Origin: Eledone cirrhosa | Taxonomy: Eukaryota | Direction of reading: 5' to 3' | DNA length: 64,000 nt | Assembly (NCBI GenBank): GCA_964016885.1 | Contig: OZ024763.1 | Span: forward strand, 20,522,001-20,586,000 | In this document: piece after piece, positions 1,405-63,700 of the stretch | Numbering within the stretch: position 1 is the stretch's first letter | Layout: every line of letters begins with the position of its first letter | Notes under the pieces: model-generated | What the model was told of the DNA's origin: nothing | Seen by the model: only the letters and a program-made list of their open reading frames with translations | The model's database searches: none | Made by a program: the position numbers and the translations under genes

Positions 1405-3537
1405 TCAAGGCGGTTGATTTATCGTAGGAGTGTCAATCCAGTTACAGATCAGATGCGATTTCAGATGAGGACAGCATCTGAAGATCTCAGTCTTAGAGTT
1501 AAGGCAAGCGGAAGTGTCTCTCAAGTTTAGCAAGATCCTATACTTTTCAGTGGTACACAAAGAACAATTCTTTGTGCCCCTTTGGTACTCCCTCGAATGG
1601 TCTAATATAGACCAATCAATAGAGTACGGGATATTACTATCCTTGAGATCCCATACCTTACTTGCGAGGGCCGTTGATGTTCGTTTATCTGAGTGTTTAA
1701 AAGAAGCGACATGTGAGTAAAATCTGGTTTTAAACCTGTCCTGGGTCATACCGACATATCGCTCGCTTCTGGCTGGCTGGTTGTTGATAACTGGCGTTAT
1801 TTTAGCCTCATAAACGACAGATTTTGTTTTACATTTACCCTGCAATGGGCATTCATCCGGCTTCCTGCAACTGCATCCTGGATTTATCCTCGTACGTTTT
1901 GAACTGGTGATTTTGGATTTCATGGATGGACAACAAGAGTAGCTGATCTTAACTACATTCCTATTAAAAATCTTATAATATCTATGAATAGGAGGAAAAT
2001 GTTTGTCTAATAGTTCAAGGAATTTCCTTCCTACATTAGTTTTGACATTTAGAGAGAAGGGGGGTGTGAACCAAATAATCTTCCTTTTCCTGTTATTATG
2101 GTTAGTTTTAGGGGGGGGAATAGGTAAATAAGAAATATTTTCTGTAAAACCGCTGTTCTTAAGGGCTTTATTATAATAAGGGGCGGCTTTATTAAAAATG
2201 TCTATAGACGAAGATAAAGTAGAAATCCTACGGCTAATGTTAGGAATAAGATTTTTAAAAACTATAGGGGGATGGCAAGACTCTTTGTGTATATACCTAA
2301 GATTTTCATTAGGTTTATGATAGGGTTTAAAAGAGGCAGTAAGTAGATCAAGATTAATATCAAGAAAGTTAGCATTAGTAAGGTTCGTATCTATAGTAAT
2401 TTTAAGGTTAAGATTAGCAAAGGTACTAATTAAATCTTTACGGAATTTATCAAGATTATGGCCATTGGTGGTATGAGAAACTGCTAATCCGTCATCACGG
2501 TATAAACCGATATTATGGGACGGAAATTTCTCTTTGAGTGTGTGGAGAAGGAATAATCCTACTAAGTCGCACACATCCGCACTGTCATAAGAACCCATTG
2601 CAACATCGAAAGAGTTTTCAGGGTTTGACTTTTTAACCCAAATCTTATCATTAGTAAAAAGTAAAGTTTTTCTGGCATGAAAGATAATGTCCTCTTCTAA
2701 TTTGGAGATATTAATGAAGGGTCTTGCAAAATCTAAGGCTTTAGTTAATAAGGAAACGGTAATAGAAGGGTAAAAATCGACAATATCAAATTGTGTAAAT
2801 CTACACTTATTTTTACCTTGTATATTATTGAACCAAGAAATAACAGAGGAAGTATTTAGCCACTGTGAAAGGACAGTGTTAGTTCTAATTTGGATAATTA
2901 TTTTTCTTAAGATTTTCTTACTAGCAAGGCCAACCTCGGATTTAGCCGGGTTAATCAGTCTACAACTAGGTCGATTAGTAAAGTCCAATTTATGGTCTTT
3001 AAGGGTAATATATGCTTTACGCTTAGCTAAGCTTTCAATCCGGTTATCTATTTGTAAAGAACTAGCTAGTTCTTTAGCTTCTTTATTGATAGTATTGTAG
3101 CTATTATTATTAGTTAATTGATATTTATTGGTAATACTATTAGTTAAAAGTTGGTTATACAAATTACTATTAACTTCAAAGAGGTTTTTGGTTTTATCAG
3201 AAAGAACAAAAGTGTTTGTAGAATTTCTAAAATTAGAGATATCGTGAGAAAGTTTAGTTTGAAAATTATTAATGTACTTACGAAATTTGATATCACTAAT
3301 TAGATTAACGAGGTCTAATTCGAAGTTGGCCATGTCTTTAATTCTAGGTGGATATTTACGGGATTTAATGTCAAAATTATCTTTAGTATCAGCACTGAAT
3401 AGTCCATCGTAAACCATTGCCTTCCATCTCATTCTTTTAACGACTTGCTCGATTTTATCAATGAGGATTTTGGTGTATGTTGTGTTGGAAGGAGTGGGTA
3501 TGTTTTTGATAGAATAATCCAAATCATAAAGGTCCAT
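1405..3537 (-). CDS. Penelope-like element ORF (reverse transcriptase + C-terminal GIY-YIG endonuclease), Naiad-type, uninterrupted 710 aa
   Basis: RT motifs QFDIVDFYPSI, AMGSYDS, LYRDDGL. PLE thumb/linker IIWFTPPFS. CxCx5C motif CSCRKPDEC. GIY-YIG motif VVYE...YVGMT...FKTRFYSH. Terminal CSLC...CPH. Confidence 0.95.
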   Translation of the reverse strand: MDLYDLDYSIKNIPTPSNTTYTKILIDKIEQVVKRMRWKAMVYDGLFSADTKDNFDIKSRKYPPRIKDMANFELDLVNLISDIKFRKYINNFQTKLSHDISNFRNSTNTFVLSDKTKNLFEVNSNLYNQLLTNSITNKYQLTNNNSYNTINKEAKELASSLQIDNRIESLAKRKAYITLKDHKLDFTNRPSCRLINPAKSEVGLASKKILRKIIIQIRTNTVLSQWLNTSSVISWFNNIQGKNKCRFTQFDIVDFYPSITVSLLTKALDFARPFINISKLEEDIIFHARKTLLFTNDKIWVKKSNPENSFDVAMGSYDSADVCDLVGLFLLHTLKEKFPSHNIGLYRDDGLAVSHTTNGHNLDKFRKDLISTFANLNLKITIDTNLTNANFLDINLDLLTASFKPYHKPNENLRYIHKESCHPPIVFKNLIPNISRRISTLSSSIDIFNKAAPYYNKALKNSGFTENISYLPIPPPKTNHNNRKRKIIWFTPPFSLNVKTNVGRKFLELLDKHFPPIHRYYKIFNRNVVKISYSCCPSMKSKITSSKRTRINPGCSCRKPDECPLQGKCKTKSVVYEAKITPVINNQPARSERYVGMTQDRFKTRFYSHVASFKHSDKRTSTALASKVWDLKDSNIPYSIDWSILDHSREYQRGTKNCSLCTTEKYRILLNLRDTSACLNSKTEIFRCCPHLKSHLICNWIDTPTINQPP

Positions 3538-3573
3538 GGTGTATGTTGGTTAAATTCCTGAAATATATTTTTG

Positions 3574-10076: not shown

Positions 10077-10186
10077 AAGAATGAGAAATTAAAGAAGAAA
10101 TAGTAAGACTGAGGAGACAGGCAGGACTGAAAGAGAAAAACATTTTTTTAGAGAATATTCATGTTGCCATCTCTTATATATATATA

Positions 10187-11770
10187 TCATCATCATCATC
10201 ATCATTTTACGTCCGCTTTTCCCTGCTTGCAAGGGTGGGACGGGTCTTATTCAGCACAGCATCTCTCCACTCGTCACGGTCCCTCGTCATCTCCACCGTG
10301 AGCTTCAATGATCTGAGGTCTGTTCTCACCACCTCCGCCCATGTTTTTTGTGGTCTACCTCTACCACGTCTTCCTTCAACTGGCAATTCCTGGCACTTCT
10401 TCACCCATCGGTCATCCTCCATGCGCATCACATATCCATACCACCTCAGTCTCCTCTCCCGTACACTACATTCTATCCCTCTCAGACACAGTTTCTCTCT
10501 CAACACATTTAAGCTGGGTCGTTCACGCACATTTACACTGCACATCCAACGGAGCATGCTTGCCTCATTTCTCTCCAGCCGTCGCATGTCCTCTGCAGTT
10601 GCTGCCCATGTCTCACTACCATGCAGCATCGCGCTCCTCACACAGGCATCATACAACCGGCCTTTCGTACGCAGGGAGAAACCCTTCTTCGTCAACAGAG
10701 GAAGCAGTTCCCTAAACTTCTTCCAACCCGTCCTTATTCTAGATACTATGGCCTCGGAACACCCTCCTCCCATGCTAATCTGATCTCCTAGGTACCGGAA
10801 GCTATCCACCACTTCTATAGCGCCCTCCTGCATTTGAAAAATGTGTCTATCAATGCGACTTCTACTGTCTAATTTCCCTGTACATCTACTGCATACATAT
10901 TTCTCCCTACCTGTTAGTTTGCCTGCTATCCCGCTACATCTCTTGTGTACCCAAGATCTGCATTGTGTGCATTTTATAGAATTTATGCCAGTTCCTTTTC
11001 TGCATATCGAACATGGCCATTTCCCTGACGGAATCAGGGTTTTGTCCTCTTTTCTACTCATCAACACTTTTGTCTTAGCTAGATTCACTCTCAGTCCTCT
11101 TGCTTCCAACTGCTCTTTCCATAGCCAGAATTTATTCTCTAGCTCCTCTACTGATTCTGCTATAAGAACCAGATCGTCAGCATAGAGAAGTTCCCATGGA
11201 CAGCCAGTCTTAAACTCCTCTGTTATGGCTTGGAGGACTATAATGAACAACAGCGGGCTGAGGACCGAACCCCGATGTACTCCTACTTGTATCTGGAATT
11301 CCTCACTAAACTCCATTCCTACCCTGACTTTACTGAGAGTACCTCTGTTCAAAGTTTGCACTGTCCTCACAAGCCATTCCTCATCACCTAGCTTCCTTAG
11401 GGACCACCAGATGACAGATCGGGGTACCCTATCAAAGGCCTTCTCTAGGTCAACAAAGGCTAAGTATAGTGGCTTATTCTTCTCTAAGAACCTCTCTTGC
11501 AATTGTCTCACCAAGAAGAGGGCATCTGTTGTACTCTTCCCAGGCACAAAACCAAACTGCATCTCATCTAGTTTGACCCTTTCTCTAATTAGTTGTGCTA
11601 AAATCCTTTCTGCCACTTTCATAACCTGATCTATCAGTTTTATACCCCTATAATTGCTCCTCTCCAAAGCATCCCCTTTACCTTTGTAGCAATTTATGAG
11701 AATACTGCTGCACCAGTCTTTGGGTATGACACCACCATATATAGCCTGATTGATGATGCGTGCAACCAGT
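10187..11770 (-). mobile_element. 5'-truncated RTE-clade LINE (RT ORF 10207-11667) with (ATG)n tail
   Basis: QFGFVPGKSTTDA, AFVDLEKAFDRV, GSVLSPLLF, LLYADDLV, RRLRWYG..., GRGRPQKTW; embedded C4HC3 finger. Confidence 0.95.
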
Positions 11771-12607
11771 TTAATATATATATATTATTATTTCTACTTT
11801 TGGCACAAGGCCAGCAATTATCCCAGTGCATTACTGGCACTTTATTTTATCGACCCCGTATGGATGAAAGGCAAAGTTGACCACGGTGGGATTTGAACTC
11901 AGAATGGCAAGGGCTGTAATTCTATGCTAGAAAGCATGGCATCCGACCCTCCACCGATACTGCCAATCCACCACCCTTATATATATATAATAGGACCCGT
12001 CCCACCGTAAAATGATGATGATGATGATGAATAGGGTATAAGTATCATAGGTGAAGAGGAAACAGAGATACAGAGAAGTGCGATACAGATTACTAAATGC
12101 CAATATATATGTTTGGTGGACACCGATCTGTCCAGCACCTTTGTCTACCAGCATATCATGAAAGAATTATACATCTTCTATCTATTTTATCCGAGGAGGA
12201 GATGTTTTGCTTTATGTTATACATAAAACTTTACATCCTCGAAATATATATAATGAAATAAATATAGATGATATAAAGTATACATCTTTCGTTTATTACT
12301 ATTATTATCTCATATAATATGGAATCTATGAGATTTTGATATTATTTATTTTGAGAACAATACCTTAACATCATTATGAGTGGCCGGTTACAGCTAGTTT
12401 GAACTGGAAGAGGTGAGAGAATTCTGGCTGGATACAGCTGGTGGCCCTACCATTAAAACACCTGAGAAACCTCCAAAGAGATGCACCCTTGTAGAAGCCC
12501 ATCTAAACCTATGTAGGTGTGATCTGTAACAACATGATAGGATTGTGGCCCCTATCATTAAAATAACCAAGAAACCTCCTGTGAGATACAACCTTATAGG
12601 CAGCTAG

Positions 12608-30480: not shown

Positions 30481-30828
30481 TACGAGGGTAGGCTGAAAAG
30501 TTCATAGGCTGGCCATGAAGGAGTGATGCTAGTGCTGTGAAATCTTGTATGCATTAATTTCAACTCTTCTTCTTAATAATAACTGCATTGTTTCTTTGCA
30601 GGGACTATGTTGAAAAATAAACCTCATTTGGTCATTCCATGAGAGTATCTTGATCAACCTATGAAGGAGTGATGCTAGAGCTGTGAAATCTTCCCAGCAT
30701 TAATTTCAACTCTTCTTATTAATAACTGAATTGTTTCTTTCCAGGGACTATGTTGAAAAATAAACCTCATTTGGTCATTCCATGAGTATCTTGGTCAGAC
30801 TATGAACTTTTTCAGCCTACACCCATAT
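30481..30828. mobile_element. Mariner-type MITE; relatives at ~27409-27730, 51985-52235, 52264-52465
   Basis: TA|CGAGGGTAGGCTGAAAAGTTCATAGGCTG ... CAGACTATGAACTTTTTCAGCCTACAC. Confidence 0.8.
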
Positions 30829-30839
30829 ACATATATATA

Positions 30840-31783
30840 CCAGATAGAAAAATGCGTACAGCAAAAAAAAGTAATATTGTTGGAATATAAACCTTTAAAA
30901 TTTTTATTGGTAAAAAATCGAGTTCCACATTCATAGGCTCTGGGTTCCACATTCAGAGGTCGTCGTCAGACCGGGGGATCATTTGATCCTGGTTTGAACA
31001 CCAATTGGGCCATAACCATACCCCTATTTCATCATTCGGTGACACGCCTCATGTGTCATGCATAATGTGAATAGACCCATGGGCCCATGAGCACAGATCT
31101 TGAGCAGCAGCGGACGGTCTTGTCGTCCCGCTCATCCTTGATCTTGACCAACCCGTCCATCTTCTCCTTGCATCTTGTCCTTGAGTTCAAGTCCGGCAGT
31201 CCAGATGAATGCGTGCCACAGCTTTCTGGTACAGGAAGGGGGAGCAGGAGGACTGGAGGGATGACGGGACAGAGGGAGGGAGGACCGGTGGTTTAGGGAG
31301 GTGCTGTAGTCGGTGGTCAGAGTCGACATCTTGTCCCGGTCGTCTTCTCCATCTTCGTCTGGTGTTGCGGGACCAGAAGTGCATTCTTGGAGGAGACCTG
31401 CAGCTGCATCGGCCAATTCTTCTTGCAATGGTCATTCTGACGGAGCAGAACCGCTCAGCCAACCAACCCCAACCAGAACCAACCGCTCAGGGGCAACGCA
31501 CAATGAGAGCATGACAATTATTATCCACTAATCAAGAAGATACTGGGGCATAGCACAGGAAACGAATAAAAAAAATTTGCCACTAATATTATTGTAACAT
31601 TTTTTATTTCTTGTCCAATTCTTTAAAGTTTTATCTTAGTTTCTTGTCCTATTCTTTTAAAGTTTTATCTTAGTTTCTTGTCCTATTCTTTTAAAGTTTT
31701 ATTTTAGTTTCTTGTCCTGTATTTTTAAAGGTTTATATTCCAACAATATTACTTTTTTTTGCTGTACGCATTTTTCTATCTGG
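30840..31783. mobile_element. Unclassified element with ~60-bp near-perfect terminal inverted repeats and a GC-rich interior
   Basis: CCAGATAGAAAAATGCGTACAGCAAAAAAAAGTAATATTGTTGGAATATAAACCTTTAAAA is inverted at ~31723-31783. Confidence 0.75.
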
Positions 31784-32057
31784 TCTACTATTTTTTAAGG
31801 CAATGCAAGCAACAACTAACTAATAATTAAATGATCATAGTGAATTACTGACAAGTGATTGACATTTTAAAGTTCTTTTGAGTATAATTGCAATCTAGTT
31901 GAGGCAACTGGCTTAATGACAAAGCTAGTAAATCATGAATGCATTTGAGATGATTAGTGCATAATAGTGAATTGGTGAAACTTGTGCATTTCAATGGTGT
32001 TACAACAATAGATGTAAGTTATATAGTAGTAATACTTTATCATTTTAACTTTTTAGA

Positions 32058-32417
32058 ATGGACAAAAACCCATGCAAAGAAATGACTTTGACTGCAGTGA
32101 TTCCCTCCAATTTACTTACAAAGCAAAACGTGGTCAAATACCTTATCATCTCTGATAAAATGCCCATTGAATCACTGAAAATCGGATGCATGGAATTCCT
32201 CATAAAATGCACCCATGAATCGGAAGCCATCACATATATCAATGGATATAGGGAGTTGTTCACACTGGAAGACCATCAATTCATTTGTGACTTCATCAGT
32301 TATCTCCACGATTATCTCAGACACCCAATGCCATTGATGAGAGGTGATCCAATGTGTGAGCATGTAACTAATCTTATAGAAGTTGTTATCGACCACCTGG
32401 CTTTTAGTGACATTTGA
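32058..32417 (+). CDS. Hypothetical 119-aa protein, convergent with the SGNH remnant
   Basis: ATG-started, complex-composition ORF in AT-rich DNA; no motif recognised. Confidence 0.3.
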   Translation: MDKNPCKEMTLTAVIPSNLLTKQNVVKYLIISDKMPIESLKIGCMEFLIKCTHESEAITYINGYRELFTLEDHQFICDFISYLHDYLRHPMPLMRGDPMCEHVTNLIEVVIDHLAFSDI

Positions 32418-32597
32418 CTGATTTGACTGATAATGATGTATTTTTAAAAAGTATGTGTACATTCTTGTTACTATTTTAAGGCAATGCAAGCAACAATTAT
32501 TTAATAAAATTTAAATTTAAAAATGACCATTGTGCATTACTAGTATGATGACATTTTATTAAGTCACAAAATTATTCAGTCAGCCATAGAACAAGGA

Positions 32598-33744
32598 TCA
32601 GGTGGCAAAAACATTGGCAAAAATTTGTGTCAATTTAAGATTTCCAACATTGTTCAAATGAATCATATCTGGTTTGAAGTCAGATTTGTCAAATTTTTAC
32701 CAATTTTCAATGTTGTGAAGATTGGGCAAGTTCAATTTTTGAATCATTTCTTTCATGCAGTAATTAAACTTTTCCAAACGAGAATTTCTCTTGCCCAAGT
32801 CATTTTTATTTTCAATTACACTTTGTGGACGTGGAATGACACCACTGTAGAAAATGGGTGTACAGTGGTGCTTTTCCGCTATTTTCTGTAGCCTTGCAAA
32901 GAGACTCTTCCCCTGTTTTTCCGGTTTTGTGCCTCGAATGGGCACTTTGTCCTTAATTTACAAATAAATGATTAATAAAAAATACTTGGGCAAAAATTAT
33001 TGTATTACTTTGCACAGCTTTGTAGTGCCAACGGTGTGACGAGGATTCAGATCATTAGAGCCGACATGAACCACCAATCATCATCATCATCATCATTTCA
33101 TTTTACGTCCGCTTTTTCCCTGCTTGCAAGGGTGGGACGGGAACTGATTCTGGCTTGATTTCTACAGCTGGATGCCCTTCCTAACACCAACCTCATTTAC
33201 AGTGAGTGGTGGGTGCTTTTTTTGCCGTGGCACCCTCCATGACCATTTTGCAGTGGAATGATAGGGACCCCAGTCCCTATCATCTCATTTCTACAGCTGA
33301 GTAAACTGGAGCAACGTGAAATAAAGTGTCTTGCTCAAGGAAACAACACATCACCCGGTCTGAGAATTGAACTCACAACCTTTTGATTGCAAGGCCAATG
33401 CTCTAACCACTAAGCCATGTGCCTCCAATACTTTCACAAAAGGACAACAGATAACAATGTTGGCGATTAACATTACCTGGCCCTGACGGGCCCCAGGTAT
33501 ACAAAATATCTAAGTATTTTTGTTGGTATGATAAGTAAATACATTTGAATTAATATTTTTATACCTTCTGGTCATTCGATTTCACCACATTTCTAATTAT
33601 GGATTTGTAAAAACTGGCATGAATGTGAATTTGATCAGTCCAATTGCCCGATTTTAGTGAAAAGTTTTGATTCGAAATGGAAATACTCCATTTCCGTGCC
33701 ATGGAAAAAATGAATAAGCCGATCAAAAAGCCGCGAAACATCAT
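32598..33744 (-). pseudogene. Spliced SGNH/GDSL-type esterase gene remnant, disrupted by a SINE and one in-frame stop
   Basis: Joining across introns 33564-33510 and 33008-32952 (both GT..AG, phase 0) and removing the SINE (TSD CCAAT) gives ...SIIRNV...|IFCIPGAR...VLVVHVGSNDL...|...IFYSGVIPRP...FN...W*...PDMIHLNNVG. These are SGNH blocks I, II, III and V in order. Confidence 0.75.
33078..33425 (-). mobile_element. SINE family B inserted in the SGNH gene
   Basis: Near-identical to 36123-36520; flanked by a CCAAT duplication. Confidence 0.85.
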
Positions 33745-34786
33745 TTTTAATTAAGCGAAATTAGTGGATGCAAATCTCAGAAAATATTGTACACTATTCG
33801 CACCTATCGCACCTATCGGTACAAAAATATAGCGCACTATTCGCACCTATCGGTACAAAAAAATCGCACGACTGTTAATAATACTAGAAGTGCAAGCTAT
33901 CTGTTGAATACTTGGTATATGAAGAGCAACCGATACGATCGGTCGGCGATCGGTCTTGAAGAAGAATGAAGAATGAAGTGAAATTTTGGTCTGGTTGTTG
34001 TCATCGGTGTTTCGCAGAGATGCCGACACGAACAAAGGTGTCAGTGACACAAAGTTGTCCGCTTGAACAAAGGTGTCGGTCCGACAAAGGTGTCAGTCAG
34101 ACAGACAGTCAGACAGTGTCACAGTCGGTGCGACAAAGCGATCGATGCGATTAAAAAAAATTTAACTCATGTTTACCTATATTTTCGCAAACTATTGATA
34201 GATTGGTACAAAAAATAGCTTTGATAATAAACATAAATTTTTAACGAAGTATTTAAAAAGCATTTTAGCAGTGAAAAGTGAAGTAATGTTTCACACTGAC
34301 ACAAGTAGGGCCGTTCAGAAATGACGTAGTCAATTAGGAGGAAGGGATTCGGCGATTTGACTACATTTGACTAACGTAATCACAAGAGTTCCGCCGAAAA
34401 AAATTCGTCATTTCTGGATTACCTCCCCTAGCGTCACGCTTACTACTCACTCACTTGAACACAAGATTTATCAGCAAACTTTGATTATAAACTTTTTCCC
34501 GCTGGACCAAATTTCTAGCTTTTTAAGCCAAAAGATGCGTAATGATCTACTGTTCATGCTCATATAAGTTTTATCTCAGTTAAATAAAGTAGAGCCGCGC
34601 TGTACTGTCGTAAACAGACGATTGCCAACGAAAACACGACCACAACAATATTACTAAACGGACTACCGTCCGTTTAGGTTAGCCGTAACTCACTCGGTAT
34701 GCAAATGAGGCTACTCATCCCTCCAGCAACATCTTGAAAGACAACATTTTTTCTCTGACAAGTCTTATAAGTGCATCTCTACTGAA

Positions 34787-34828
<42 letters not shown>

Positions 34829-34836
34829 TAAAATAA

Positions 34837-34910
34837 CAGATTAAAGTTTAAGCAAAGAATCGCTGCTTTCACCCTTAACGGGATCTTCTGAAACTAACAA
34901 AGTCAATCTG
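34837..34910 (-). ncRNA. Variant hammerhead ribozyme (CAGAAGA core), left arm of a fold-back
   Basis: Near-exact reverse complement of 35111-35184. Confidence 0.6.
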
Positions 34911-35110
34911 TAAACGCAGAACTGGATATTTCAAAAAACGTTGCAACCGGAGGAAGACAGGAAGACGATACTTTGGTTCGTGGAAACGTTCGCTGGCAAA
35001 GAACGGGAAAAAACGAATAATACGTCATTAATAGGAGCGGTAGAAACAATTACGCGCAAAGACAGAACAACGTTTGCAACGTTTTTTTTAAATATTCACT
35101 TCTGCGTTCA

Positions 35111-35184
35111 CAGATTGAGTTTGTTAGTTTCAGAAGATCCCGTTAAGGGTGAAAGCAGCGATTCTTTGCTTAAACTTTAATCTG
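35111..35184 (+). ncRNA. Variant hammerhead ribozyme (CAGAAGA core)
   Basis: cagatt..agttt-CAGAAGA-tccc/gggt-GAAA-gca..tgc-TT-aaact..aatctg; all three stems pair. Confidence 0.62.
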
Positions 35185-35592
35185 TTATTTTAATAAATAT
35201 TTGCTCTTCGGTTCTTATATATTTGATATATATTTTCCTTATCGAGCCCTCTTTGAATTTTAGTCTTCAATTTTATTATTATTACTATATATATATATAC
35301 AGACACATATATACCTGTTGTATCATAAATGTACTTGAAGAAGAAACATAGTGTAAGAATTAAAACTTATTTTTAAATATCGTGCTTTCTCCTCCATATA
35401 TTTTTGATTATATATATATATTCCAACTGCATTTTAAGTTACCTTAAATCGCAACTGCACAGCTATTTCTATTCTCTCTCTCTCTATATATATATAGATG
35501 TCAACATGAATGGACCTGTTATTTTTATCTAAAAACATTTTTTTCCAATTCCATCCCGCTCGTCCCCTCAATCTATTTTATTTCTCATTCTT

Positions 35593-37131: not shown

Positions 37132-37287
37132 CAATATAAACAGTCTTATAAATAGATAGATTTGACATACCTTACACTTCAACTTCCATTTAAAAAGTTG
37201 ATTTGGTAGTGAAAAATGTTAGGGACAGTTATAGAGAAAAAAAAAAAAGAAAGAAAGAAAGAAAGCGAAGAAAAAGAAGAAATGCAT

Positions 37288-38208
37288 ATAGTGAACTCTG
37301 TTCAAAAACGTATCTCTAGAATCTCATCTAATAAAAAGATTTTCGACGAAAAAGCCCAGTATTACAATGAAGCGTTAGCTAGAGCAGGATATAGTGATAC
37401 AATTATGTACATAGATAATAATAGACAAACTAACCAAAATAACAACAATTTTAATTACGGCAACAACTTTAACAACTATAATAGAAAGCATTACAATAAT
37501 TCCAAAAGCCAAAAAAGAAATAGAACTAGAAATATAATATGGTTTGCCCCACCTTTCTCACTAAACATTAAAACCCACATCGCTAAACTATTTTTTAATG
37601 CTCTTGATAATCGCTTCCCTAGAACACATAAGTATCACTCAATTTTCAATAGACATACTATAAAATTAACTTACTCATCCACCAAAAATTTAGCACAAAA
37701 TATTAATAGAATAAATAATAGGAATTTAAAACCTAGCCAAAATACCGATAATAGCATAAATAATATCCAAGTAAACAAATGTAACTGTAGAGATAGATCT
37801 AAATGTCCGTTAAATAACAATTGCTTAGTTAAAAATATAATATACAACTGTAATGTTAAAACGGACTTAAATTCTTTTAACTATGTTGGTTCCACCTCGA
37901 CAGAATTTAAACTTCGCTATAATAACCACAAGAATTCTTTCACAGATCCAAGCAAAAAATCTTCAACATCACTATCAGGCTTACTCTGGCAACTTAAGCA
38001 TGATAACGTTGGATATTCGACGGCTTGGAATATAGTCTCAAGAGGGATTCCTTTTAATTCATCTTCTGAGACATGTGACCTCTGCGCGGAGGAGATATTC
38101 TTTATACTAAAATCTAAAAATTCCCTTAATTTACGGACAAATTTATTCAGTTGCTGCAGACATAGATTGAACTCAACTTTTAAATATAAATATAAATTTA
38201 AAATGTAG
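37288..38208 (+). pseudogene. Truncated PLE ORF: RT thumb, CxCx5C linker, GIY-YIG endonuclease
   Basis: KRISRISS, IIWFAPPFS, CNCRDRSKC, IIYNC...YVGST...FKLRYNNH, CDLC...CRH. The first ~24 aa of ORF 37216 come from the inverted pLTR. Confidence 0.9.
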
Positions 38209-40631: not shown

Positions 40632-42028
40632 GGAAGAGCAATTAGAGACGTGTGATATAGAGGAACAGTGGCAATTCCTGAAAGTGAACCTGCTGAAAGC
40701 AACAGATGAAATTTGTGGCTGGAGCAGACCTATTGGCAGGAGGAGAGTAACTTCGTGGTGGAACAGTAAGGTAGAAGAGACAATCAAGGCCAAAAAGCAG
40801 GCTTGGAAAGTTTGGCAGGATGGGGGAAGTAGAGAGCACTATCAAGTAGCCAGGAGAAAAGCTAGGAGACAAGTGTACCTTGCAAAAAAGGAAGCAGAGG
40901 ATAGAAAGTTCAAGCATGTTCTACAACGCGAGGACTAAAAATGCGAGGTGCTCAGGATTGCTAGACAATGTGTCAAGGAAAACCGTGATATTGTCGGAGA
41001 GAAGTGTGTACGTAATGATAACGGTGTACTTGCCCTCACTGACGCTGATAAGAAGATAGCCTGGAAGTGTCACTACGAGAGACTATTAAATGAGGAGAAT
41101 AAGTGGGAAAAAGATATTCTGCCCCAAATCGATCCAATAGAAGGACCAGCGGTGCAAGTTAAAGGTAGTATAATAAGTAAGGCAATCAAAGATATGAAGA
41201 TGGGTAAGGCAGCTGGGCCTTCGGAGATAGTTGCTGAGATGTTGAAGGCATCTGGAATGGTGGGACATACTATGGTCACCCGTATAGTTAACCAAGTAAT
41301 ACAGAATGGGGTCATACCAAAAGACTGGCGTAGCAGCATCATCATTAACTGCTACAAGGGTAAAGGAGATGCTCTAGATAGAGGAAACTATATAGTCATT
41401 AAGTTAATTGACCAGGTCATGAAGGTCACAGAAAGAGTTATAGTGCAACTAATCAGAGAGCGAATTGATCTAGATGAAATGCAGTTTGGGTTTGTGTCAG
41501 GTGAAAGTACCACAGACGCTCTTTTACTTGTACGACAACTACAAGAGAAGTACCTAGCTAAAAGTAAACCCCTATACTTAGCTTTTGTAGACCTGGAAAA
41601 AGCCTTTGACAGAGTCTCCCGCTCCATTATCTGGTGGGCTCTTAGAAAACTAGGTGTAGATGAATGGCTTGTGAGAGCTATACAAGCTATGTATAATGAA
41701 ACAGTCAGCAAGGTTAGAATTAACAATGAATATTGTGAAGAATTTAGTGTAAAAGTTGGTGTTCACCAAGGCTCTGTCCTTAGCCCCCTCCTATTAATGT
41801 GTAATGTGGCCGTGTAGGTATCACGGTAAAAAGTTCCCAGTTCCACACTGTAAATGTGGTTGGTGTTAGGAAGGGCATCCAGCCGTAGAAAACCTGCCAG
41901 ATAGTCCTATATGAGCGAGACACGGTCACTCGACCAACCTTGCCTCAAGTGGGAGAACTCCCGTCTAACCCATGCTAGCGTGGAAAGTAGACGTTAAACG
42001 AGGATGATGATGATGATGATGATGATGA
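40632..42028 (+). mobile_element. RTE LINE, 5'-truncated and internally deleted (jumps from SPLL to the 3'UTR), with one in-frame stop
   Basis: ORFs 40684-40938 and 40948-41817 share a frame; motifs WWN, GKAAGP, IPKDW, QFGF, DLEKAFDRV; (ATG)n tail at ~42003-42028. Confidence 0.9.
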
Positions 42029-42336: not shown

Positions 42337-44108
42337 TCATCATCATCATCATCATCATCGTTTAACGTCCGTGTTCCACGCTTGCATGGGTTTGGACGGG
42401 AGTTTTCCCACTTGAGGCAAGAGTGGTTGTCATTGCTCACATAGGACTGTCTGGCGGGTTTTCTACAGCTGGATACCCTTCCTAACACCAACCACGTTTA
42501 TAGTGTGGGGCTGGGAGGTTTTTACCTTGTTGCCTACACGGCCACATTACAGCGTGGACTGTGTGTTTTTTTGTCGTGACACCTACACGACCTCATTTCT
42601 TTCGGCCTGGATGTTGTGGCACCAACATAACTTTACATTGAAAGGGGCGGTGTGGATGGGGGGGGGGGGTATTTTGTTAGAGGTGCCTACTGAGTGTAGT
42701 AGGTTTTACTTTGTATTTAGGTAAGGCGGGTCTTCTCTATTACTGAGTACCGCCAAAGGTCTCGGTCCAGTGACATTGTCTTGGAGAGGTGTAAGTGTGT
42801 GAGGTCGGAATTTATCAGCTCGTCCCAGGTTTTTCTGGGTCTGCCTACTCCGTGGCTACCGTCTATCTTTATTGCCCTGCACTTTGTTATACAGCTGTCG
42901 TCTTTCATGCGCATCACGTGCCCATACCAACGTAGCCTTCTCTCGAGTAAACAACATCTGATCCCTCTTATTTTTAATTTTTTCCTTAGTTCGTTTATGC
43001 TTTGCCGTTCACGTATATTACTATTACACATCCAGTGGAGCATGCAAGCTTTGTTCCTCTCTAGTCTGCGTATATCCTCTGCACACAATGCCCAGGTCTC
43101 ACTGCCATGCAACATTGCTGTTCGTATGCAGGCATCATACAACCTGCCTTTCATTTTTAGAGAGAACCCTTTAGCGGCTAATAGTGGTATAAGCTCTCTG
43201 AACTTTTTCCATCCAGTTCTGACTCTAGCTACTGTACTTTCAGAGCACCCTCCCCCATTGCTGATTTTGTCACCCAGGTAACGGAAGTTGTCCACTATTT
43301 CTATAGAGCCCTCTGCGCAATTGAAAGAGCTAGTATTTTGTGGGCACTTGCTGCTACTTATTGCACCAGAGCACCGGCCACATGTAAAATCTACATTCTT
43401 AGTTAGCTTACCTGTGATCCCACTACATCTTTTATGCACCCATACTTTGCATTTGGGACATAAAATGGAGTTTCTACCTACGCCTTTCCTACACACTGAG
43501 CATGGCCATTTCCAGGAAGGGACCGGCGCCTTATTTTCTTTCCTACAAACTAGAACTTTAGTCTTAGCCAGGTTAATTTTAAGGCCTTTTGATTCTAGGC
43601 CGTGCTTCCATGTTTGGAATTTCTTCTCTAGCTCGGCCATTGATTCAGCTATGAGCGTTAGATCATCTGCGTATAGGAGTTCCCATGGGCAGCCGGTCTT
43701 GAACTCCTCTGTTATAGCCTGAAGGGCAATAATAAATAGTAGGGGGCTAAGAACAGAGCCCTGATGGACACCAACTTTTACGCTAAACTCTTCACTATAT
43801 TCGTTGTTAATTCTAACCTTGCTGACTGTTTCTTTATACATGGCTTGTATAGCTCTCTCAAGCCATTCGTCAACACCTAGTTTTCTAAGAGCCCACCAGA
43901 TAATGGAACGGGGGACTCTGTCGAAGGCTTTCTCCATGTCGACAAAAGCTAAGTATAGGGGTTTACTTTTAGCTAGGTACTTCTCCTGTAGTTGTCGTAC
44001 AATGAAAAGAGCGTCTGTGGTACTTTTGCCTGACACAAACCCGAACTGCATTTCATCTAGATCAATTCTCTCTCTGATTAGTTGCGCTATTACTTTTTCC
44101 GTGACCTT
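42337..44108 (-). mobile_element. 5'-truncated RTE LINE (RT + PHD finger + 3'UTR)
   Basis: ORF 42717-44129 has LLYADDLT, the C4HC3 finger and RRLRWYGHV; 3'UTR ends in (ATG)n; the 5' end abuts (TA)n. Confidence 0.95.
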
Positions 44109-45769
44109 GATATATATATATATATACAAGGGCCTTGTTTCAGGGAGGTACCAGGAGACAAGTCTATATTTTATTATTTATTTTTAAGCTTATTTTTTTA
44201 TATCTTAACTTCATTTGAATATATAAAATTTAATTAGCATAAAATTTTATTTATGTGATAGGGTTTGGGAAAGGCACCATAAGCAATTTATGCTCCTTTA
44301 AGAATCAACAAATGTTGGTTTGTCCTCCTCACATTTTTAAGGCAAACGAGACCCTTGTATATATATTATATTTATATTTATATATATAACATATGTGGTA
44401 AGTATTTCCATAGAAAAGGTAAAGGAAAGAAGAGTGCTCTATGTATAGTACAGAGCTGTTTAATTACATAAAAATGTGTTGTTTAAATATATATATATAT
44501 AGATATGCAGTTGTCTCCCGGTATTCACGGGGGTTATGTTTGTAGAGCACCCATAAAGATTGTAAAACCGTGAATATTGAACGTGGTCTGTAAAAATGCC
44601 TATAAATATAATGTAAAATATAACATAAAAAAAGAGGGAGCATCTTATGTGAAGGGGCATCCAATAGGTCAGCAAATACGGCATATTCAACATCATCATC
44701 GTTTAACGTCTATCTTCCACGCTAGCATGGGTTTAAACGGGAATTGTCCCACTTGAGGCAAGATTGGTTGTCTTGCTCATATAGGACTGTCTGGCAGGTT
44801 TTCTACGGCTGGATGCCCTTCCTAACACCAACCACATTTACAGTGTATATTGTTATTAATAATTTAGCATTAAAAAATATATATATTGCCACAAAAAAGC
44901 CATAAATAAATCGCGGAAGATATTTATGATTCTGCGAATATGCAGTGATTTCCATGAACAATTATTAGTTAGGTTCTAAGGAAAATTCCTTAAATAACTG
45001 GGACCGCGAATGCCAAGAGTACACTGTATATGAATCTAACAATAGAACCAGCAGCTGGACCTAGTTCCTGACTTGTGGAGGCAATTTAATGACAGTAATC
45101 AATGGAAAACCTACAACTATTGTATACATATACACAAAATGGATCATTATTATTCTTTTTATTGATGTGAAAGCAAAAGCTGTGCTATAAGCCCTAATAT
45201 TCAAATTAAATTCAACACCATTATCAGGACATAGATGTTTATCTAACCATCTGCCAGTTGGTTTTGACGGTAAAAATCTGTCCAGCGATTCTTTCCTGAG
45301 ACATTCTATTCAGAATGGATCACATAATGCAGATTGTTTTGCAACTAATATCATACATTCACTTAGTGTAAGAGTATAGTTAGATACAATAATAATTGTT
45401 TCTACTTTTTGGCACAAGGCCAGCAATTATCCCAGTGTATTACTGGTACTTTATTTTATCGACCCCGTAAGGATGAAAGGCAAAGTTAACCTCAGCGGGA
45501 TTTGAACTCAGTCCGTAAAGGGACGTAACTGCTGGAAAGCATGGCGTCCGACCCTCTACCGATACTGCCAATCCACCAATATGATAATAATGAAAATTAT
45601 TGTGTACAGTGCTCAGGTGCACTACAACTCATCAAAGGTGCATGTATAGTACATAGAATAATTGTTTCTACTTTTGGCACAAGGCCAGCAATTACCCAGT
45701 ACATTACTGGTACTTTATTTATATAGTACATAGAATAATGCACATAATGTCAGGAAAGTAAACAGTGTA

Positions 45770-57752: not shown

Positions 57753-60700
57753 TCATTTCCCATTGATCCAGTGGTAAAAGTGTTCAACTGACTATCATAA
57801 TGTCGTGGGTTTGATTCCTGGTCTGGGTTGTGTGTTGTGTTCTTGAGCAAAACACTTCATTTCCCATTGCTCCAGTGGTAAAAGTGTTGGACTGACGATC
57901 ATAATGTGGGTTTGATTCCTGATCTTGGTTGAGTGTTGTGTTCTTGATCAAAACACTTCATTTCCCATTGATCCAGTGGTAAAAGTGTTGAACTGACGAT
58001 CATAATGTCGTGGGTTTGATTCCTGGTCTGGGTTGTGTGTTGTGTTCTTGAGCAAAACACTTCATTTCCCATTGCTCCAGTTGTAAAAGTGTTGGACTGA
58101 CGATCATAATGTCGTGGGTTTGATTCCTGGACTGGGTTGTGTGTTGTGTTCTTGAGCAAAACACTTCATTTCCCATTGCTCCAGTGGTAAAAGTGTTGGA
58201 CTGACGATCATAATGTCGTGGGTTTGATTCCTGGACTGGGTTGTGTGTTGTGTTCTTGAGCAAAACACTTCATTTCCCATTGCTCCAGTGGTAAAAGTGT
58301 TGGACTGACGATCATAATGTCGTGGGTTTGATTCCTGGACTGGGTTGTGTGTTGTGTTCTTGAGCAAAACACTTCATTTCCCATTGATCCAGTGGTAAAA
58401 GTGTTGGACTGACGATCATAATGTCGTGGGTTTGACTCCTGGACTGGGTTGTGTGTTGTGTTCTTGAGCAAAACACTTCATTTCCCATTGCTCCAGTGGT
58501 AAAAGTGTTGGCCTGACGATCATAATGTCGTGGGTTTGACTCCTGGACTGGGTTGTGTGTTGTGTTCTTGAGCAAAACACTTCATTTCCCATTGCTCCAG
58601 TGGTAAAAGTGTTGGACTGACGATCATAATGTCGTGGGTTTGATTCCTGGACTGGGTTGTGTGTTGTGTTCTTGAGCAAAACACTTCATTTCCCATTGCT
58701 CCAGTGGTAAAAGTGTTGGCCTGACGATCATAATGTCGTGGGTTTGACTCCTGGACTGGGTTGTGTGTTGTGTTCTTGAGCAAAACACTTCATTTCCCAT
58801 TGCTCCAGTGGTAAAAGTGTTGGCCTGACGATCATAATGTCGTGGGTTTCACTCCTGGACTGGGTTGTGTGTTGTGTTCTTGAGCAAAACACTTCATTTC
58901 CCATTGCTCCAGTGGTAAAAGTGTTGGACTGACGATCATAATGTCGTGGGTTTGATTCCTGGACTGGGTTGTGTGTTGTGTTCTTGAGCAAAACACTTCA
59001 TTTCCCATTGCTCCAGTGGTAAAAGTGTTGGCCTGACGATCATAATGTCGTGGGTTTGACTCCTGGACTGGGTTGTGTGTTGTGTTCTTGAGCAAAACAC
59101 TTCATTTCCCATTGCTCCAGTGGTAAAAGTGTTGGACTGACGATCATAATGTCGTGGGTTTGACTCCTGGACTGGGTTGTGTGTTGTGTTCTTGAGCAAA
59201 ACACTTCATTTCCCATTGCTCCAGTGGTAAAAGTGTTGGCCTGACGATCATAATGTCGTGGGTTTGACTCCTGGACTGGGTTGTGTGTTGTGTTCTTGAG
59301 CAAAACACTTCATTTCCCATTGCTCCAGTGGTAAAAGTGTTGGCCTGACGATCATAATGTCGTAGGTTTCACTCCTGGACTGGGTTGTGTGTTGTGTTCT
59401 TGAGCAAAACACTTCATTTCCCATTGCTCCAGTGGTAAAAGTGTTGGACTGACGATCATAATGTCGTGGGTTTGATTCCTGGACTGGGTTGTGTGTTGTG
59501 TTCTTGAGCAAAACACTTCATTTCCCATTGCTCCAGTGGTAAAAGTGTTGGCCTGACGATCATAATGTCGTGGGTTTGACTCCTGGACTGGGTTGTGTGT
59601 TGTGTTCTTGAGCAAAACACTTCATTTCCCATTGCTCCAGTGGTAAAAGTGTTGGACTGACGATCATAATGTCGTGGGTTTGACTCCTGGACTGGGTTGT
59701 GTGTTGTGTTCTTGAGCAAAACACTTCATTTCCCATTGCTCCAGTGGTAAAAGTGTTGGCCTGACGATCATAATGTCGTGGGTTTGACTCCTGGACTGGG
59801 TTGTGTGTTGTGTTCTTGAGCAAAACACTTCATTTCCCATTGCTCCAGTGGTAAAAGTGTTGGCCTGACGATCATAATGTCGTGGGTTTGACTCCTGGAC
59901 TGGGTTGTGTGTTGTGTTCTTGAGCAAAACACTTCATTTCCCATTGCTCCAGTGGTAAAAGTGTTGGCCTGACGATCATAATGTCGTGGGTTTGACTCCT
60001 GGACTGGGTTGTGTGTTGTGTTCTTGAGCAAAACACTTCATTTCCCATTGCTCCAGTGGTAAAAGTGTTGGCCTGACGATCATAATGTCGTGGGTTTGAC
60101 TCCTGGACTGGGTTGTGTGTTGTGTTCTTGAGCAAAACACTTCATTTCCCATTGCTCCAGTGGTAAAAGTGTTGGCCTGACGATCATAATGTCGTGGGTT
60201 TGACTCCTGGACTGGGTTGTGTGTTGTGTTCTTGAGCAAAACACTTCATTTCCCATTGCTCCAGTGGTAAAAGTGTTGGCCTGACGATCATAATGTCGTG
60301 GGTTTGACTCCTGGACTGGGTTGTGTGTTGTGTTCTTGAGCAAAACACTTCATTTCCCATTGCTCCAGTGGTAAAAGTGTTGGCCTGACGATCATAATGT
60401 CGTGGGTTTGACTCCTGGACTGGGTTGTGTGTTGTGTTCTTGAGCAAAACACTTCATTTCCCATTGCTCCAGTGGTAAAAGTGTTGGCCTGACGATCATA
60501 ATGTCGTGGGTTTGACTCCTGGACTGGGTTGTGTGTTGTGTTCTTGAGCAAAACACTTCATTTCCCATTGCTCCAGTGGTAAAAGTGTTGGCCTGACGAT
60601 CATAATGTCGTGGGTTTGACTCCTGGACTGGGTTGTGTGTTGTGTTCTTGAGCAAAACACTTCATTTCCCATTGCTCCAGTGGTAAAAGTGTTGGCCTGA

Positions 60701-63700
60701 CGATCATAATGTCGTAGGTTTCACTCCTGGACTGGGTTGTGTGTTGTGTTCTTGAGCAAAACACTTCATTTCCCATTGCTCCAGTGGTAAAAGTGTTGGA
60801 CTGACGATCATAATGTCGTGGGTTTGATTCCTGGACTGGGTTGTGTGTTGTGTTCTTGAGCAAAACACTTCATTTCCCATTGCTCCAGTGGTAAAAGTGT
60901 TGGACTGACGATCATAATGTCGTGGGTTTGATTCCTGGACTGGGTTGTGTGTTGTGTTCTTGAGCAAAACACTTCATTTCCCATTGATCCAGTGGTAAAA
61001 GTGTTAGACTTATGATCATAATGTGGGTTTGATTCCTGATCTGGGTTGTGTGTTGTGTTCTTGAGCAAAACACTTCATTTCCCATAGATCCAGTGGTAAA
61101 AGTGTTGGACTGACGATCATAATGTCGTGGGTTTGATTCCTGGACTGGGTTGTGTGTTGTGTTCTTGAGCAAAACACTTCATTTCCCATTGCTCCAGTGG
61201 TAAAAGTGTTGGACTGACGATCATAATGTTGTGGGTTTGATTCCTGGACTGGGTTGTGTGTTGTGTTCTTGAGCAAAACACTTCATTTCCCATTGATCCA
61301 GTGGTAAAAGTGTTGGACTGATGATCATAATGTCGTGGGTTTGATTCCTGGACTGGGTTGTGTGTTGTGTTCTTGAGCAAAACACTTCATTTCCCATTGC
61401 TCCAGTGGTAAAAGTGTTGGACTGACGATCAGAATGTGGTGGGTTTGACTCCTGGACTGGATTGTGTGTTGTGTTCTTGAGCAAAACACTTCATTTCCCA
61501 TTGCTCCAGTGGTAAAAGTGTTGGCCTGACGATCATAATGTCGTGGGTTTGACTCCTGGACTGGGTTGTGTGTTGTGTTCTTGAGCAAAACACTTCATTT
61601 CCCATTGATCCAGTGGTAAAAGTGTTGGCCTGACGATCAGAATGTGTTGGGTTTGACTCCTGGACTGGATTGTGTGTTGTGTTCTTGAGCAAAACACTTC
61701 ATTTCCCATTGATCCAGTGGTAAAAGTGTTGGACTTACGATCAGAATGTGTTGGGTTTGACTCCTGATCTGGGTTGTGTGTTGTGTTCTTGAGCAAAACA
61801 CTTCATTTCCCATTGCTCCAGTGGTAAAAGTGTTGGCCTGACGATCATAATGTCGTGGGTTTGACTCCTGGACTGGGTTGTGTGTTGTGTTCTTGAGCAA
61901 AACACTTCATTTCCCATTGCTCCAGTGGTAAAAGTGTTGGCCTGACGATCATAATGTCGTGGGTTTGACTCCTGGACTGGGTTGTGTGTTGTGTTCTTGA
62001 GCAAAACACTTCATTTCCCATTGCTCCAGTGGTAAAAGTGTTGGCCTGACGATCATAATGTCGTGGGTTTGACTCCTGGACTGGGTTGTGTGTTGTGTTC
62101 TTGAGCAAAACACTTCATTTCCCATTGCTCCAGTGGTAAAAGTGTTGGCCTGACGATCATAATGTCGTAGGTTTCACTCCTGGACTGGGTTGTGTGTTGT
62201 GTTCTTGAGCAAAACACTTCATTTCCCATTGCTCCAGTGGTAAAAGTGTTGGACTGACGATCATAATGTCGTGGGTTTGATTCCTGGACTGGGTTGTGTG
62301 TTGTGTTCTTGAGCAAAACACTTCATTTCCCATTGCTCCAGTGGTAAAAGTGTTGGACTGACGATCATAATGTCGTGGGTTTGATTCCTGGACTGGGTTG
62401 TGTGTTGTGTTCTTGAGCAAAACACTTCATTTCCCATTGATCCAGTGGTAAAAGTGTTAGACTTATGATCATAATGTGGGTTTGATTCCTGATCTGGGTT
62501 GTGTGTTGTGTTCTTGAGCAAAACACTTCATTTCCCATAGATCCAGTGGTAAAAGTGTTGGACTGACGATCATAATGTCGTGGGTTTGATTCCTGGACTG
62601 GGTTGTGTGTTGTGTTCTTGAGCAAAACACTTCATTTCCCATTGCTCCAGTGGTAAAAGTGTTGGACTGACGATCATAATGTCGTGGGTTTGATTCCTGG
62701 ACTGGGTTGTGTGTTGTGTTCTTGAGCAAAACACTTCATTTCCCATTGCTCCAGTGGTAAAAGTGTTGGCCTGACGATCATAATGTCGTGGGTTTGACTC
62801 CTGGACTGGGTTGTGTGTTGTGTTCTTGAGCAAAACACTTCATTTCCCATTGCTCCAGTGGTAAAAGTGTTGGCCTGACGATCATAATGTCGTGGGTTTG
62901 ACTCCTGGACTGGGTTGTGTGTTGTGTTCTTGAGCAAAACACTTCATTTCCCATTGCTCCAGTGGTAAAAGTGTTGGCCTGACGATCATAATGTCGTAGG
63001 TTTCACTCCTGGACTGGGTTGTGTGTTGTGTTCTTGAGCAAAACACTTCATTTCCCATTGCTCCAGTGGTAAAAGTGTTGGACTGACGATCATAATGTCG
63101 TGGGTTTGATTCCTGGACTGGGTTGTGTGTTGTGTTCTTGAGCAAAACACTTCATTTCCCATTGCTCCAGTGGTAAAAGTGTTGGACTGACGATCATAAT
63201 GTCGTGGGTTTGATTCCTGGACTGGGTTGTGTGTTGTGTTCTTGAGCAAAACACTTCATTTCCCATTGCTCCAGTGGTAAAAGTGTTGGCCTGACGATCA
63301 TAATGTCGTGGGTTTGACTCCTGGACTGGGTTGTGTGTTGTGTTCTTGAGCAAAACACTTCATTTCCCATTGCTCCAGTGGTAAAAGTGTTGGCCTGACG
63401 ATCATAATGTCGTGGGTTTGACTCCTGGACTGGGTTGTGTGTTGTGTTCTTGAGCAAAACACTTCATTTCCCATTGCTCCAGTGGTAAAAGTGTTGGCCT
63501 GACGATCATAATGTCGTAGGTTTCACTCCTGGACTGGGTTGTGTGTTGTGTTCTTGAGCAAAACACTTCATTTCCCATTGCTCCAGTGGTAAAAGTGTTG
63601 GACTGACGATCATAATGTCGTGGGTTTGATTCCTGGACTGGGTTGTGTGTTGTGTTCTTGAGCAAAACACTTCATTTCCCATTGCTCCAGTGGTAAAAGT

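What the first reader, a model, noticed from the sequence alone, without database searches (positions are those of the whole stretch)
32598..33744. Hidden spliced SGNH esterase gene with 55-57 nt introns
Seen: splicing two AT-rich GT-AG mini-introns and excising a SINE restores ordered SGNH blocks: SIIRNV, CIPGA, VVHVGSND, SGVIPR and DMIHLN..G. One TAA remains and the block I GDS is damaged. Established: this motif style resembles esterases carried by retroelements (CR1/RTE-X ORF1, some PLEs) and other mobile DNA. LINEs lose introns, whereas PLEs and DNA elements can keep them. Inference: an accessory gene of an unrecognised multi-gene mobile element or endogenous virus, or a domesticated esterase.
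Basis: partly seen in the sequence, partly recalled or inferred. Interest (0 to 1): 0.75.

Follow-up and report, generated by a model that had tools for sequence, protein, structure and literature searches.

The report
Helitron-borne broken NADAR–SGNH esterase gene
This esterase-like gene is the broken back half of a two-domain gene (a likely ADP-ribose remover fused to a likely lipid esterase) carried by a recently active rolling-circle transposon; this copy is likely dead cargo, but the parent gene and the transposon's unusual ends are new variants worth testing.

Summary
In detail: two GT-AG mini-introns (55 and 57 nt), a 351-bp SINE insertion and one TAA. The gene lies in a 3.8-kb non-autonomous Helitron (window 34679→30840), one of at least 97 copies with the same deletion junction. 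It derives from a ~12.6-kb HLE2 element (RepHel with DUF6570, PIF1, UCH) that carries a five-exon NADAR–SGNH gene downstream of RepHel. A ~9-kb internal deletion fused RepHel's first 48 codons to the esterase at the block I serine; this is the 'damaged GDS'. The SINE is private to this copy; the TAA is shared by 1 of 19 paralogues. Copies show no selection (dN/dS 1.13), so this copy is likely a pseudogene. It is neither a virus nor domesticated. All 4 database homologues are also NADAR–SGNH fusions. Three families here pair an HLE2 transposase with A|TC…CTRR|T ends, a 5' hairpin and a ~220-bp 3' inverted repeat, like the oomycete proto-Helentron. Helitron–SGNH capture is known in fish (texim). 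The scan found the NADAR–SGNH gene before on another piece of this genome (e1-9506873). Splicing and enzyme activity are untested.

The parts
30840..34679 (-). Non-autonomous HLE2 Helitron copy (3,840 bp with the SINE, 3,489 without); internal-deletion derivative of a ~12.6-kb RepHel element
   Evidence: Shared boundaries with 20 paralogues and with RepHel-bearing copies
34654..34677 (-). 5' terminal hairpin (10-bp stem, 4-nt loop) just after the 5' terminal dinucleotide (TC in 23 of 25 copies; AC in this copy)
   Evidence: DNA fold -10.2 kcal/mol; compensatory pair change in the sister family
34643..34654 (-). 12-bp left subterminal inverted repeat
   Evidence: Inverted match at 30871-30882
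33601..33744 (-). First 48 codons of the RepHel gene, fused in frame to the esterase; supplies the Ser codon at 33603-33601
   Evidence: Same leader opens the RepHel ORF in autonomous copies
33599..33603 (-). Deletion junction (~9 kb lost: rest of RepHel, UCH tail, NADAR exons, Gly-Asp of block I), with short microhomology
   Evidence: junction 22-mer at 97 places versus intact GDS 22-mer at 6
33565..33600 (-). Remnant of exon 3 of the parent NADAR–SGNH gene (IIRNV…QK)
33510..33564 (-). 55-nt GT-AG intron (predicted)
   Evidence: homologue spacing
33425..33509 (-). SGNH exon, 5' part (block II, CIPGA)
33074..33424 (-). tRNA-derived SINE with a TGA-repeat tail and a 5-bp target duplication; its 3' end is shared with an RTE-type LINE in the window; private to this copy
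   Evidence: Absent in 20 of 20 paralogues; tRNA-like head and 95% match to 10186-10244
33009..33073 (-). SGNH exon, 3' part (block III, VVHVGSND)
32952..33008 (-). 57-nt GT-AG intron (predicted; two in-frame TAA if retained)
32598..32951 (-). Last SGNH exon (SGVIPR, block V DMIH), premature TAA at 32699-32697
32049..32417 (+). Antisense 122-codon open frame inside the element, kept at 93-96% identity in most listed copies; no family; not shown to be a gene
31570..31787 (.). Inner arm of a 218-bp inverted repeat of the 3' end
30901..31569 (.). Loop between the arms; inverted in 2 of 39 copies
30840..30900 (-). Remnant of the outer arm (about 150 bp deleted here) with the right subterminal repeat (30882-30871) and the 3' CTGG end, followed by T

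Best explanation
The finding is the SGNH half of a five-exon NADAR–SGNH gene that sits downstream of RepHel in an HLE2 Helitron; this copy is a non-autonomous deletion derivative, likely non-functional and likely moved in trans by the parent's RepHel. Shown: a ~9-kb deletion joined the RepHel leader to the esterase at the block I serine, at least 97 copies share that junction, and this copy also carries a SINE and a stop. Inferred: RepHel nicks at the shared ends and inserts copies between A and T without duplication. Inferred for the parent gene: it is an optional helper of the element. Its NADAR domain (Glu, Lys and Glu at positions matching the catalytic residues) would strip ADP-ribose from guanines on the single-stranded intermediate or transcript. 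Its SGNH domain would bind or cleave lipids, as the LINE ORF1 esterase does.
For: Copies are 99% identical over the gene region and share sharp ends. In 25 copies with both ends, the 5' flank is A in 25, the start is TC in 23, and the end is CTGG (23) or CTAG (2) followed by T in 25. Five copies have empty paralogous sites without duplication. RepHel-bearing copies share the ends and carry the gene with GDS intact. An 88%-identical sister RepHel has Helitron_like_N 1.5e-26, PIF1 3.2e-20, DUF6570 9.2e-18 and UCH 1.7e-07. One copy (L102) gives an uninterrupted 335-aa ORF over 5 exons with GT-AG introns of 55, 217, 54 and 57 nt. NADAR hits: exon 1 E 0.0023, exon 2 E 0.067, collinear; genome-wide E 5.7e-4; homologue P0003 1.4e-12. 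4 of 4 database homologues are NADAR–SGNH fusions aligning across the domain border. Neutral decay: 37 nonsynonymous and 12 synonymous variants in 15 copies, dN/dS 1.13; 4 of 18 copies lost a splice dinucleotide.
Against: No RNA evidence for expression or splicing. All direct Pfam hits of the host-genome NADAR and SGNH exons are below curated cut-offs. Only 1 of 6 GDS-bearing copies has the whole ORF. That copy has Asn for the block V Asp and a broken RepHel, so no fully intact autonomous copy was seen. The gene is absent from the 88% sister family (2 copies) and undetected in the 58% family (3 copies), which fits neutral hitch-hiking as well as a helper role. The NADAR is shorter than solved ones between its helices. 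One copy (L039) has a 7-9-bp repeat on both flanks that could pass for a target duplication.
Confidence: 0.88

Rival explanations
1. The NADAR–SGNH gene is a host gene captured by the Helitron and carried as neutral cargo, with no role in transposition (the second hypothesis proposed for texim).
For: It has introns. It is missing from the 88% sister family and undetected in the 58% family. Only 6 intact-GDS copies exist against 97 truncated ones.
Against: A genome-wide NADAR search found only 2 matches among 4 candidates, both inside the element, and all 6 GDS places lie in element copies; no host parent was seen. These searches are exon by exon and weak for divergent genes. The closest solved relative is a retroelement esterase.
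Confidence: 0.35
2. The chimeric RepHel-leader/SGNH ORF is itself functional and helped the derivative family outnumber its parent.
For: The junction is in frame and restores a serine at the nucleophile position. The ORF is open in 12 of 18 paralogues, 9 of them with all four splice dinucleotides.
Against: dN/dS 1.13; stops, frameshifts and splice-site losses occur freely. The first strand and the Gly-Asp of block I are replaced. Selection after insertion is not expected for helper genes either, so this test is not decisive for the master copy.
Confidence: 0.05
3. The gene belongs to an endogenous virus or a Penelope-like retroelement.
For: The motif style matches retroelement esterases; Penelope-like ORFs lie elsewhere in the window; there is a long terminal inverted repeat.
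Against: The mapped element holds RepHel, with no reverse transcriptase, capsid or integrase between its ends; no relative among 110 pattern matches in viral contigs.
Confidence: 0.02
4. A domesticated host esterase at this locus.
For: Intron-bearing gene with a start codon.
Against: One of at least 97 dispersed near-identical copies; this one has a SINE in a coding exon and a stop.
Confidence: 0.01

Closest known systems
texim genes of teleost fish (Tomaszkiewicz et al. 2014, PMC4021074; parts 1-3 of 5 read)
   Same: Intron-containing SGNH hydrolase gene, related to CR1 esterases, carried by a Helitron and multicopy.
   Different: In texim the Helitron coding region lies 3' of the gene or in its last intron; here RepHel is upstream. 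teximYa and teximYb have 15 exons against 5 here. No NADAR domain is mentioned in the parts read. The paper calls the capture fish-specific. Homology to Texim could not be tested (no sequence in hand).
proto-Helentron of Phytophthora (PMC4067079 section 11; PMC11417382 section 24)
   Same: HLE2-type RepHel without endonuclease, 3' CTAG-type end, A|T insertion without duplication, ~12-bp subterminal repeats, 5' stem-loop.
   Different: Starts TC rather than TT; hairpin abuts the left repeat; UCH tail; ~220-bp 3' inverted repeat; animal host. HELIANO reports no similar element in its 404 sampled species.
HLE2-reverse / FoHeli3-5 of Fusarium (PMC5148889 passages; PMC11417382 section 24)
   Same: 5' hairpin upstream of the left repeat, no 3' hairpin, DUF6570.
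   Different: FoHeli3-5 start TGCCT and end CTCCTGT with no established target; the ORF is reversed in FoHeli4 and FoHeli5.
ZfL2-1 LINE ORF1p esterase (PDB 4c1b; PMC3905857, abstract only)
   Same: Only significant PDB match (E 1.3e-11); same SGNH block spacing; shown in that paper to hydrolyse esters and bind phospholipids.
   Different: Part of a retrotransposon ORF1 with a coiled coil, not fused to NADAR, not in a DNA transposon.
YbiA-family NADAR (PMC11543638 and PMC11125620, passages); NADAR in Ectocarpus Gypsy and oyster Tx1 elements (PMC12477816, passages)
   Same: NADAR motifs with Glu…Lys (+7) and a last-strand Glu; precedent for NADAR capture by transposons.
   Different: Reported cases are retrotransposons; here it is a DNA transposon and the domain is fused to an SGNH esterase.

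Membership tests
Helitron-like elements | Rep (HUH) plus PIF1 helicase in the autonomous partner | tested here: met
Helitron-like elements | No target-site duplication | tested here: met
   Empty sites for 5 of 25 copies; the rest lie in microsatellite or gave no match; L039 ambiguous
HLE2 (Helentron/Helitron2) clade | DUF6570 marker; UCH enriched in subgroups c and d | tested here: met
   DUF6570 9.2e-18, UCH 1.7e-07 in the 88% sister RepHel; criteria from PMC11417382 sections 22-23. No tree was built.
HLE2 (Helentron/Helitron2) clade | Rep motif 2 signatures: F/Y-x-R before the motif, Ser between Gly and Pro | tested here: inconclusive
   YFWR is present; the motif reads RGAPHIH, neither Ser nor Leu
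Canonical Helentron | Apurinic endonuclease domain | tested here: not met
   No such Pfam hit; the C-terminus is UCH
Canonical Helentron | T|T target, 3' hairpin after the right repeat | tested here: not met
   A|T target; strong hairpin at the 5' end, 3' end folds only -2.7 kcal/mol
HLE1 (canonical Helitron) | 5' TC, 3' CTRR, A|T target | tested here: met
HLE1 (canonical Helitron) | HLE1-type RepHel and 3' hairpin; no subterminal repeats | tested here: not met
   25-31% identity to the genome's other Helitron Rep family, DUF6570 present, 12-bp repeats present
proto-Helentron | HLE2 RepHel without endonuclease, CTRR end, A|T target, 5' stem-loop, ~12-bp repeats | tested here: met
proto-Helentron | 5' TT start | tested here: not met
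   Start is TC
proto-Helentron | Same phylogenetic subgroup as the Phytophthora element | not testable with these tools
   No reference sequence in hand
SGNH hydrolase | Blocks I (GDS), II (Gly), III (Asn), V (DxxH) in order, parent gene | tested here: met
SGNH hydrolase | Intact block I and open frame in the window copy | tested here: not met
   YKS junction, SINE, TAA
NADAR (YbiA family) | Profile match and catalytic Glu, Lys, Glu | tested here: inconclusive
   Sub-threshold hits for the element's exons, above threshold for homologue P0003; residues assigned by motif spacing, not by structure
texim | Clusters with Texim proteins | not testable with these tools
   No Texim sequence was returned

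The most novel reading that the evidence does not exclude
An animal clade of HLE2 Helitrons with proto-Helentron-like ends (A|TC…CTRR|T, 5' hairpin, ~220-bp 3' inverted repeat around an invertible loop) carries a NADAR–SGNH counter-defence enzyme. The enzyme would erase host guanine ADP-ribosylation from the single-stranded transposition intermediate, which would imply that the animal uses DNA ADP-ribosylation against transposons.
Probability: 0.2. Interest if true: 0.85.

Novelty: new variant of a known kind. Interest (0 to 1): 0.5.

Why it matters
The window copy itself is ordinary transposon debris. The parent matters for three reasons. It extends Helitron–SGNH carriage beyond fish, where it was thought to be a one-off capture. 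It puts a NADAR domain on a single-stranded-DNA transposon; guanine DNA ADP-ribosyltransferase activity is reported in clams (CARP-1, PMC11209040 passages), so an anti-transposon role for that mark and its reversal becomes directly testable. It shows three recently active animal families with an HLE2 transposase but HLE1-like ends, a type so far reported only in oomycetes and missed by an end-based annotator. This bears on how the two Helitron end types are related.

Tried and rejected
No RNA holder was listed for the gene region. Laying two unlabelled contig runs on the parent gene showed no joints; they read as DNA and say nothing on splicing. AlphaFold on a 3-sequence alignment with the intron left in gave pLDDT 55, and its fold search had no match at E 0.001, so it is uninformative. 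The protein atlas gave no result. No longer (470-2000 aa) fused homologue was found among 7,996 scored candidates, which is weak evidence. P0003 as query found only itself. The PDB search with the NADAR exons gave only E 1.5 to a solved NADAR, below three chance protease hits. The PF14214 search returned another Helitron family as top hits and was not followed. Rejected: a third intron inside the block II exon (46 nt, breaks frame and spacing); an acceptor just upstream of the serine (the junction explains block I); a Penelope-type or parvovirus-like reading of the inverted repeat; a separate MITE forming the 3' repeat (it shares the 12-bp repeat with the 5' end, and the layout recurs in three families). 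The 'win' row was mis-cut at the SINE, was not among the 15 copies counted, and was redone. Literature searches: Helitron+SGNH (11 papers; texim is the only direct case by title, and only that one was read); NADAR+Helitron (20 papers, 1 read, which concerns retrotransposons); texim (73); octopus+Helitron+Helentron (74); Helitron+esterase+ORF1+Helentron (84). The HELIANO supplement held had 0 hits for NADAR, SGNH or Lipase_GDSL; it may be cut. Repbase and subscription papers were not searchable, so absence from print is not established.

Full report
Observation. With the SINE left out the reading is 227 codons with one TAA at 32699-32697. The last exon alone matches Lipase_GDSL_3 weakly (E 0.006). 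A profile of a paralogue's exons with two homologues matches the ZfL2-1 ORF1 esterase 4c1b at E 1.3e-11.

The gene is part of a young repeat. A DNA search of the 3-Gb host genome gave 667 candidates; of the 40 scored, all but the window itself were 99% identical. All 20 paralogues fetched lack the SINE, and 18 of 19 aligned have TCA instead of the TAA. The SINE is 351 bp with a 5-bp duplication, a tRNA-like head and a 3' end shared with an RTE-type LINE in the window.

Ends. The element runs from 34679 to 30840. Of 43 stretches examined, 25 gave both ends cleanly. The 5' flank is A in 25. The start is TC in 23 (this copy has AC). The end is CTGG in 23 or CTAG in 2, followed by T in 25. Five copies have empty paralogous sites without a duplication; the others lie in AT microsatellite or gave no match, and L039 is ambiguous. 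A 10-bp hairpin follows the TC and shows a compensatory change in a sister family; a 12-bp repeat follows it and recurs inverted near the 3' end. The last 218 bp are repeated inverted about 670 bp upstream. The loop between the arms is inverted in 2 of 39 copies.

Parent element. Divergent matches led to copies with RepHel between the same ends; L089/L091 spans about 12.6 kb. An 88%-identical sister RepHel has Helitron_like_N, DUF6570, PIF1 and a C-terminal UCH domain, and no endonuclease hit. By HELIANO (PMC11417382, sections 22-24, passages and a supplement search seen) DUF6570 marks HLE2 and UCH is enriched in its subgroups c and d. I built no tree. The junction 22-mer occurs at 97 places and the intact GDS 22-mer at 6; reversed controls gave 0.

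Parent gene. Upstream of GDS lie further exons. In L102 five exons (introns 55, 217, 54 and 57 nt, all GT-AG) give an open 335-aa frame; further 5' exons are not excluded. Exons 1 and 2 match NADAR collinearly but below cut-off (E 0.0023 and 0.067; exon 3 no hit). A genome-wide NADAR search returned 2 matches, both in this element. Glu, Lys (+7) and a last-strand Glu sit where PMC11543638 (passages) places the catalytic residues; this assignment is by motif spacing. All four database homologues are NADAR–SGNH fusions at 27-33% identity; their organisms and contexts are unknown. Of the 6 GDS copies, 4 follow RepHel and 2 are in shorter derivatives lacking exon 1. Only L102 is open throughout, and it has Asn for the block V Asp and a broken RepHel. 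The gene is deleted or rearranged in other RepHel copies, absent from the 88% sister family and undetected in a 58% family.

Function of the window copy. Among 18 paralogues scored (L026 and L037 left out for deletions or failed alignment), 12 keep the chimeric frame open and 9 of those keep all splice dinucleotides. Fifteen copies without indels give 37 nonsynonymous and 12 synonymous variants, dN/dS 1.13. With a SINE in an exon, a stop and a replaced block I strand, this copy is best read as a pseudogene. Mobilisation in trans by RepHel follows from established Helitron biology and the shared ends. No RNA run was available, so splicing is inferred.

Likely role of the parent gene. I favour an optional helper. 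NADAR would remove ADP-ribose from guanines of the single-stranded intermediate or transcript, the conserved in vitro activity of NADARs (PMC11125620 and PMC11543638, passages). SGNH would act on lipids, as shown for the ZfL2-1 esterase (PMC3905857, abstract). Clams have a guanine DNA ADP-ribosyltransferase (PMC11209040, passages), which makes a counter-defence role plausible but untested. Passive carriage of a host gene remains a real rival for this step. The 0.88 confidence is for the identity and history of the element; the helper role is about even odds, and the specific counter-defence about 0.2.

Comparison. Helitron carriage of an intron-bearing SGNH gene is known as texim in fish (PMC4021074, parts 1-3 of 5). 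NADAR capture is known in Gypsy and Tx1 retroelements (PMC12477816, passages). My searches found neither NADAR in a Helitron nor a NADAR–SGNH fusion, but Repbase and closed papers were out of reach. The ends fail the canonical Helentron test and the transposase fails the HLE1 test. The best match is the Phytophthora proto-Helentron (PMC4067079, section 11 and passages) and Fusarium HLE2-reverse (PMC5148889, passages), differing in the TC start and the long 3' repeat. A third family with a 2,230-aa RepHel at 58% Rep identity has the same layout: A|TC plus hairpin (3 copies seen), CTAG|T (2 copies), and a 221-bp inverted repeat (1 copy checked).

Verdict. A real but dead gene fragment in a non-autonomous HLE2 Helitron; the parent's NADAR–SGNH cargo and proto-Helentron-like ends are new variants of known kinds. 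The scan noted the NADAR–SGNH gene before in this genome (e1-9506873); I reached and recorded that reading before the look-up. Interest 0.5.

Noticed in passing
L107/L108 (G000:C5:5366550-5379400), also L109-L112: A very young HLE2 family with a single 2,230-aa RepHel ORF, at least 7 copies open at 2,230-2,245 aa; same end layout as the finding's element; no NADAR–SGNH detected. Possibly still active.
   Followed up: partly
window 30901-31569: GC-rich loop between the 218-bp arms, inverted in 2 of 39 copies, holding a ~150-codon open stretch in paralogues; no tblastx match in the sister families.
   Followed up: partly
window 32049-32417 (+): 122-codon antisense frame within the element; no Pfam family. 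A motif about 75% alike flanks it on both sides (31786-31869 and 32469-32558).
   Followed up: partly
L118-L120 (G000:C28:136455000-136484999): Autonomous copy whose NADAR exons are split by nested insertions, including a sister-family Helitron.
   Followed up: partly
L073/L074, L087, L088, L097/L098, L103/L104, L121-L124, L127/L128: Several other deletion or rearrangement lineages of the same element, including one joining the first 281 bp to the last SGNH exon and one with the gene's 3' part placed before its 5' part.
   Followed up: partly
window 57975-64000: Tandem array of ~104-bp units, each about 75% like the tRNA-derived head of the SINE: a satellite apparently grown from a SINE head.
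   Followed up: no
window 1405-3549 (-) and 37213-38208 (+): Penelope-like RT/GIY-YIG ORFs (714 aa and a 331-aa fragment), labelled from recalled motifs.
   Followed up: no
window 10207-11784, 40939-41817, 42717-44177: RTE-type LINE fragments; the SINE shares its 3' end with the first.
   Followed up: partly
window 34821-35200 and about 30483-30823: Two small inverted-repeat elements flank the Helitron: one with 118-bp arms, one with mariner-like ends (label recalled).
   Followed up: no
L077/L078, L085/L086, L041-L070: Another Helitron Rep type is abundant (3,704 candidates for PF14214), with near-regular spacing of about 100-140 kb on C20 and C27, suggesting large tandem duplications.
   Followed up: no
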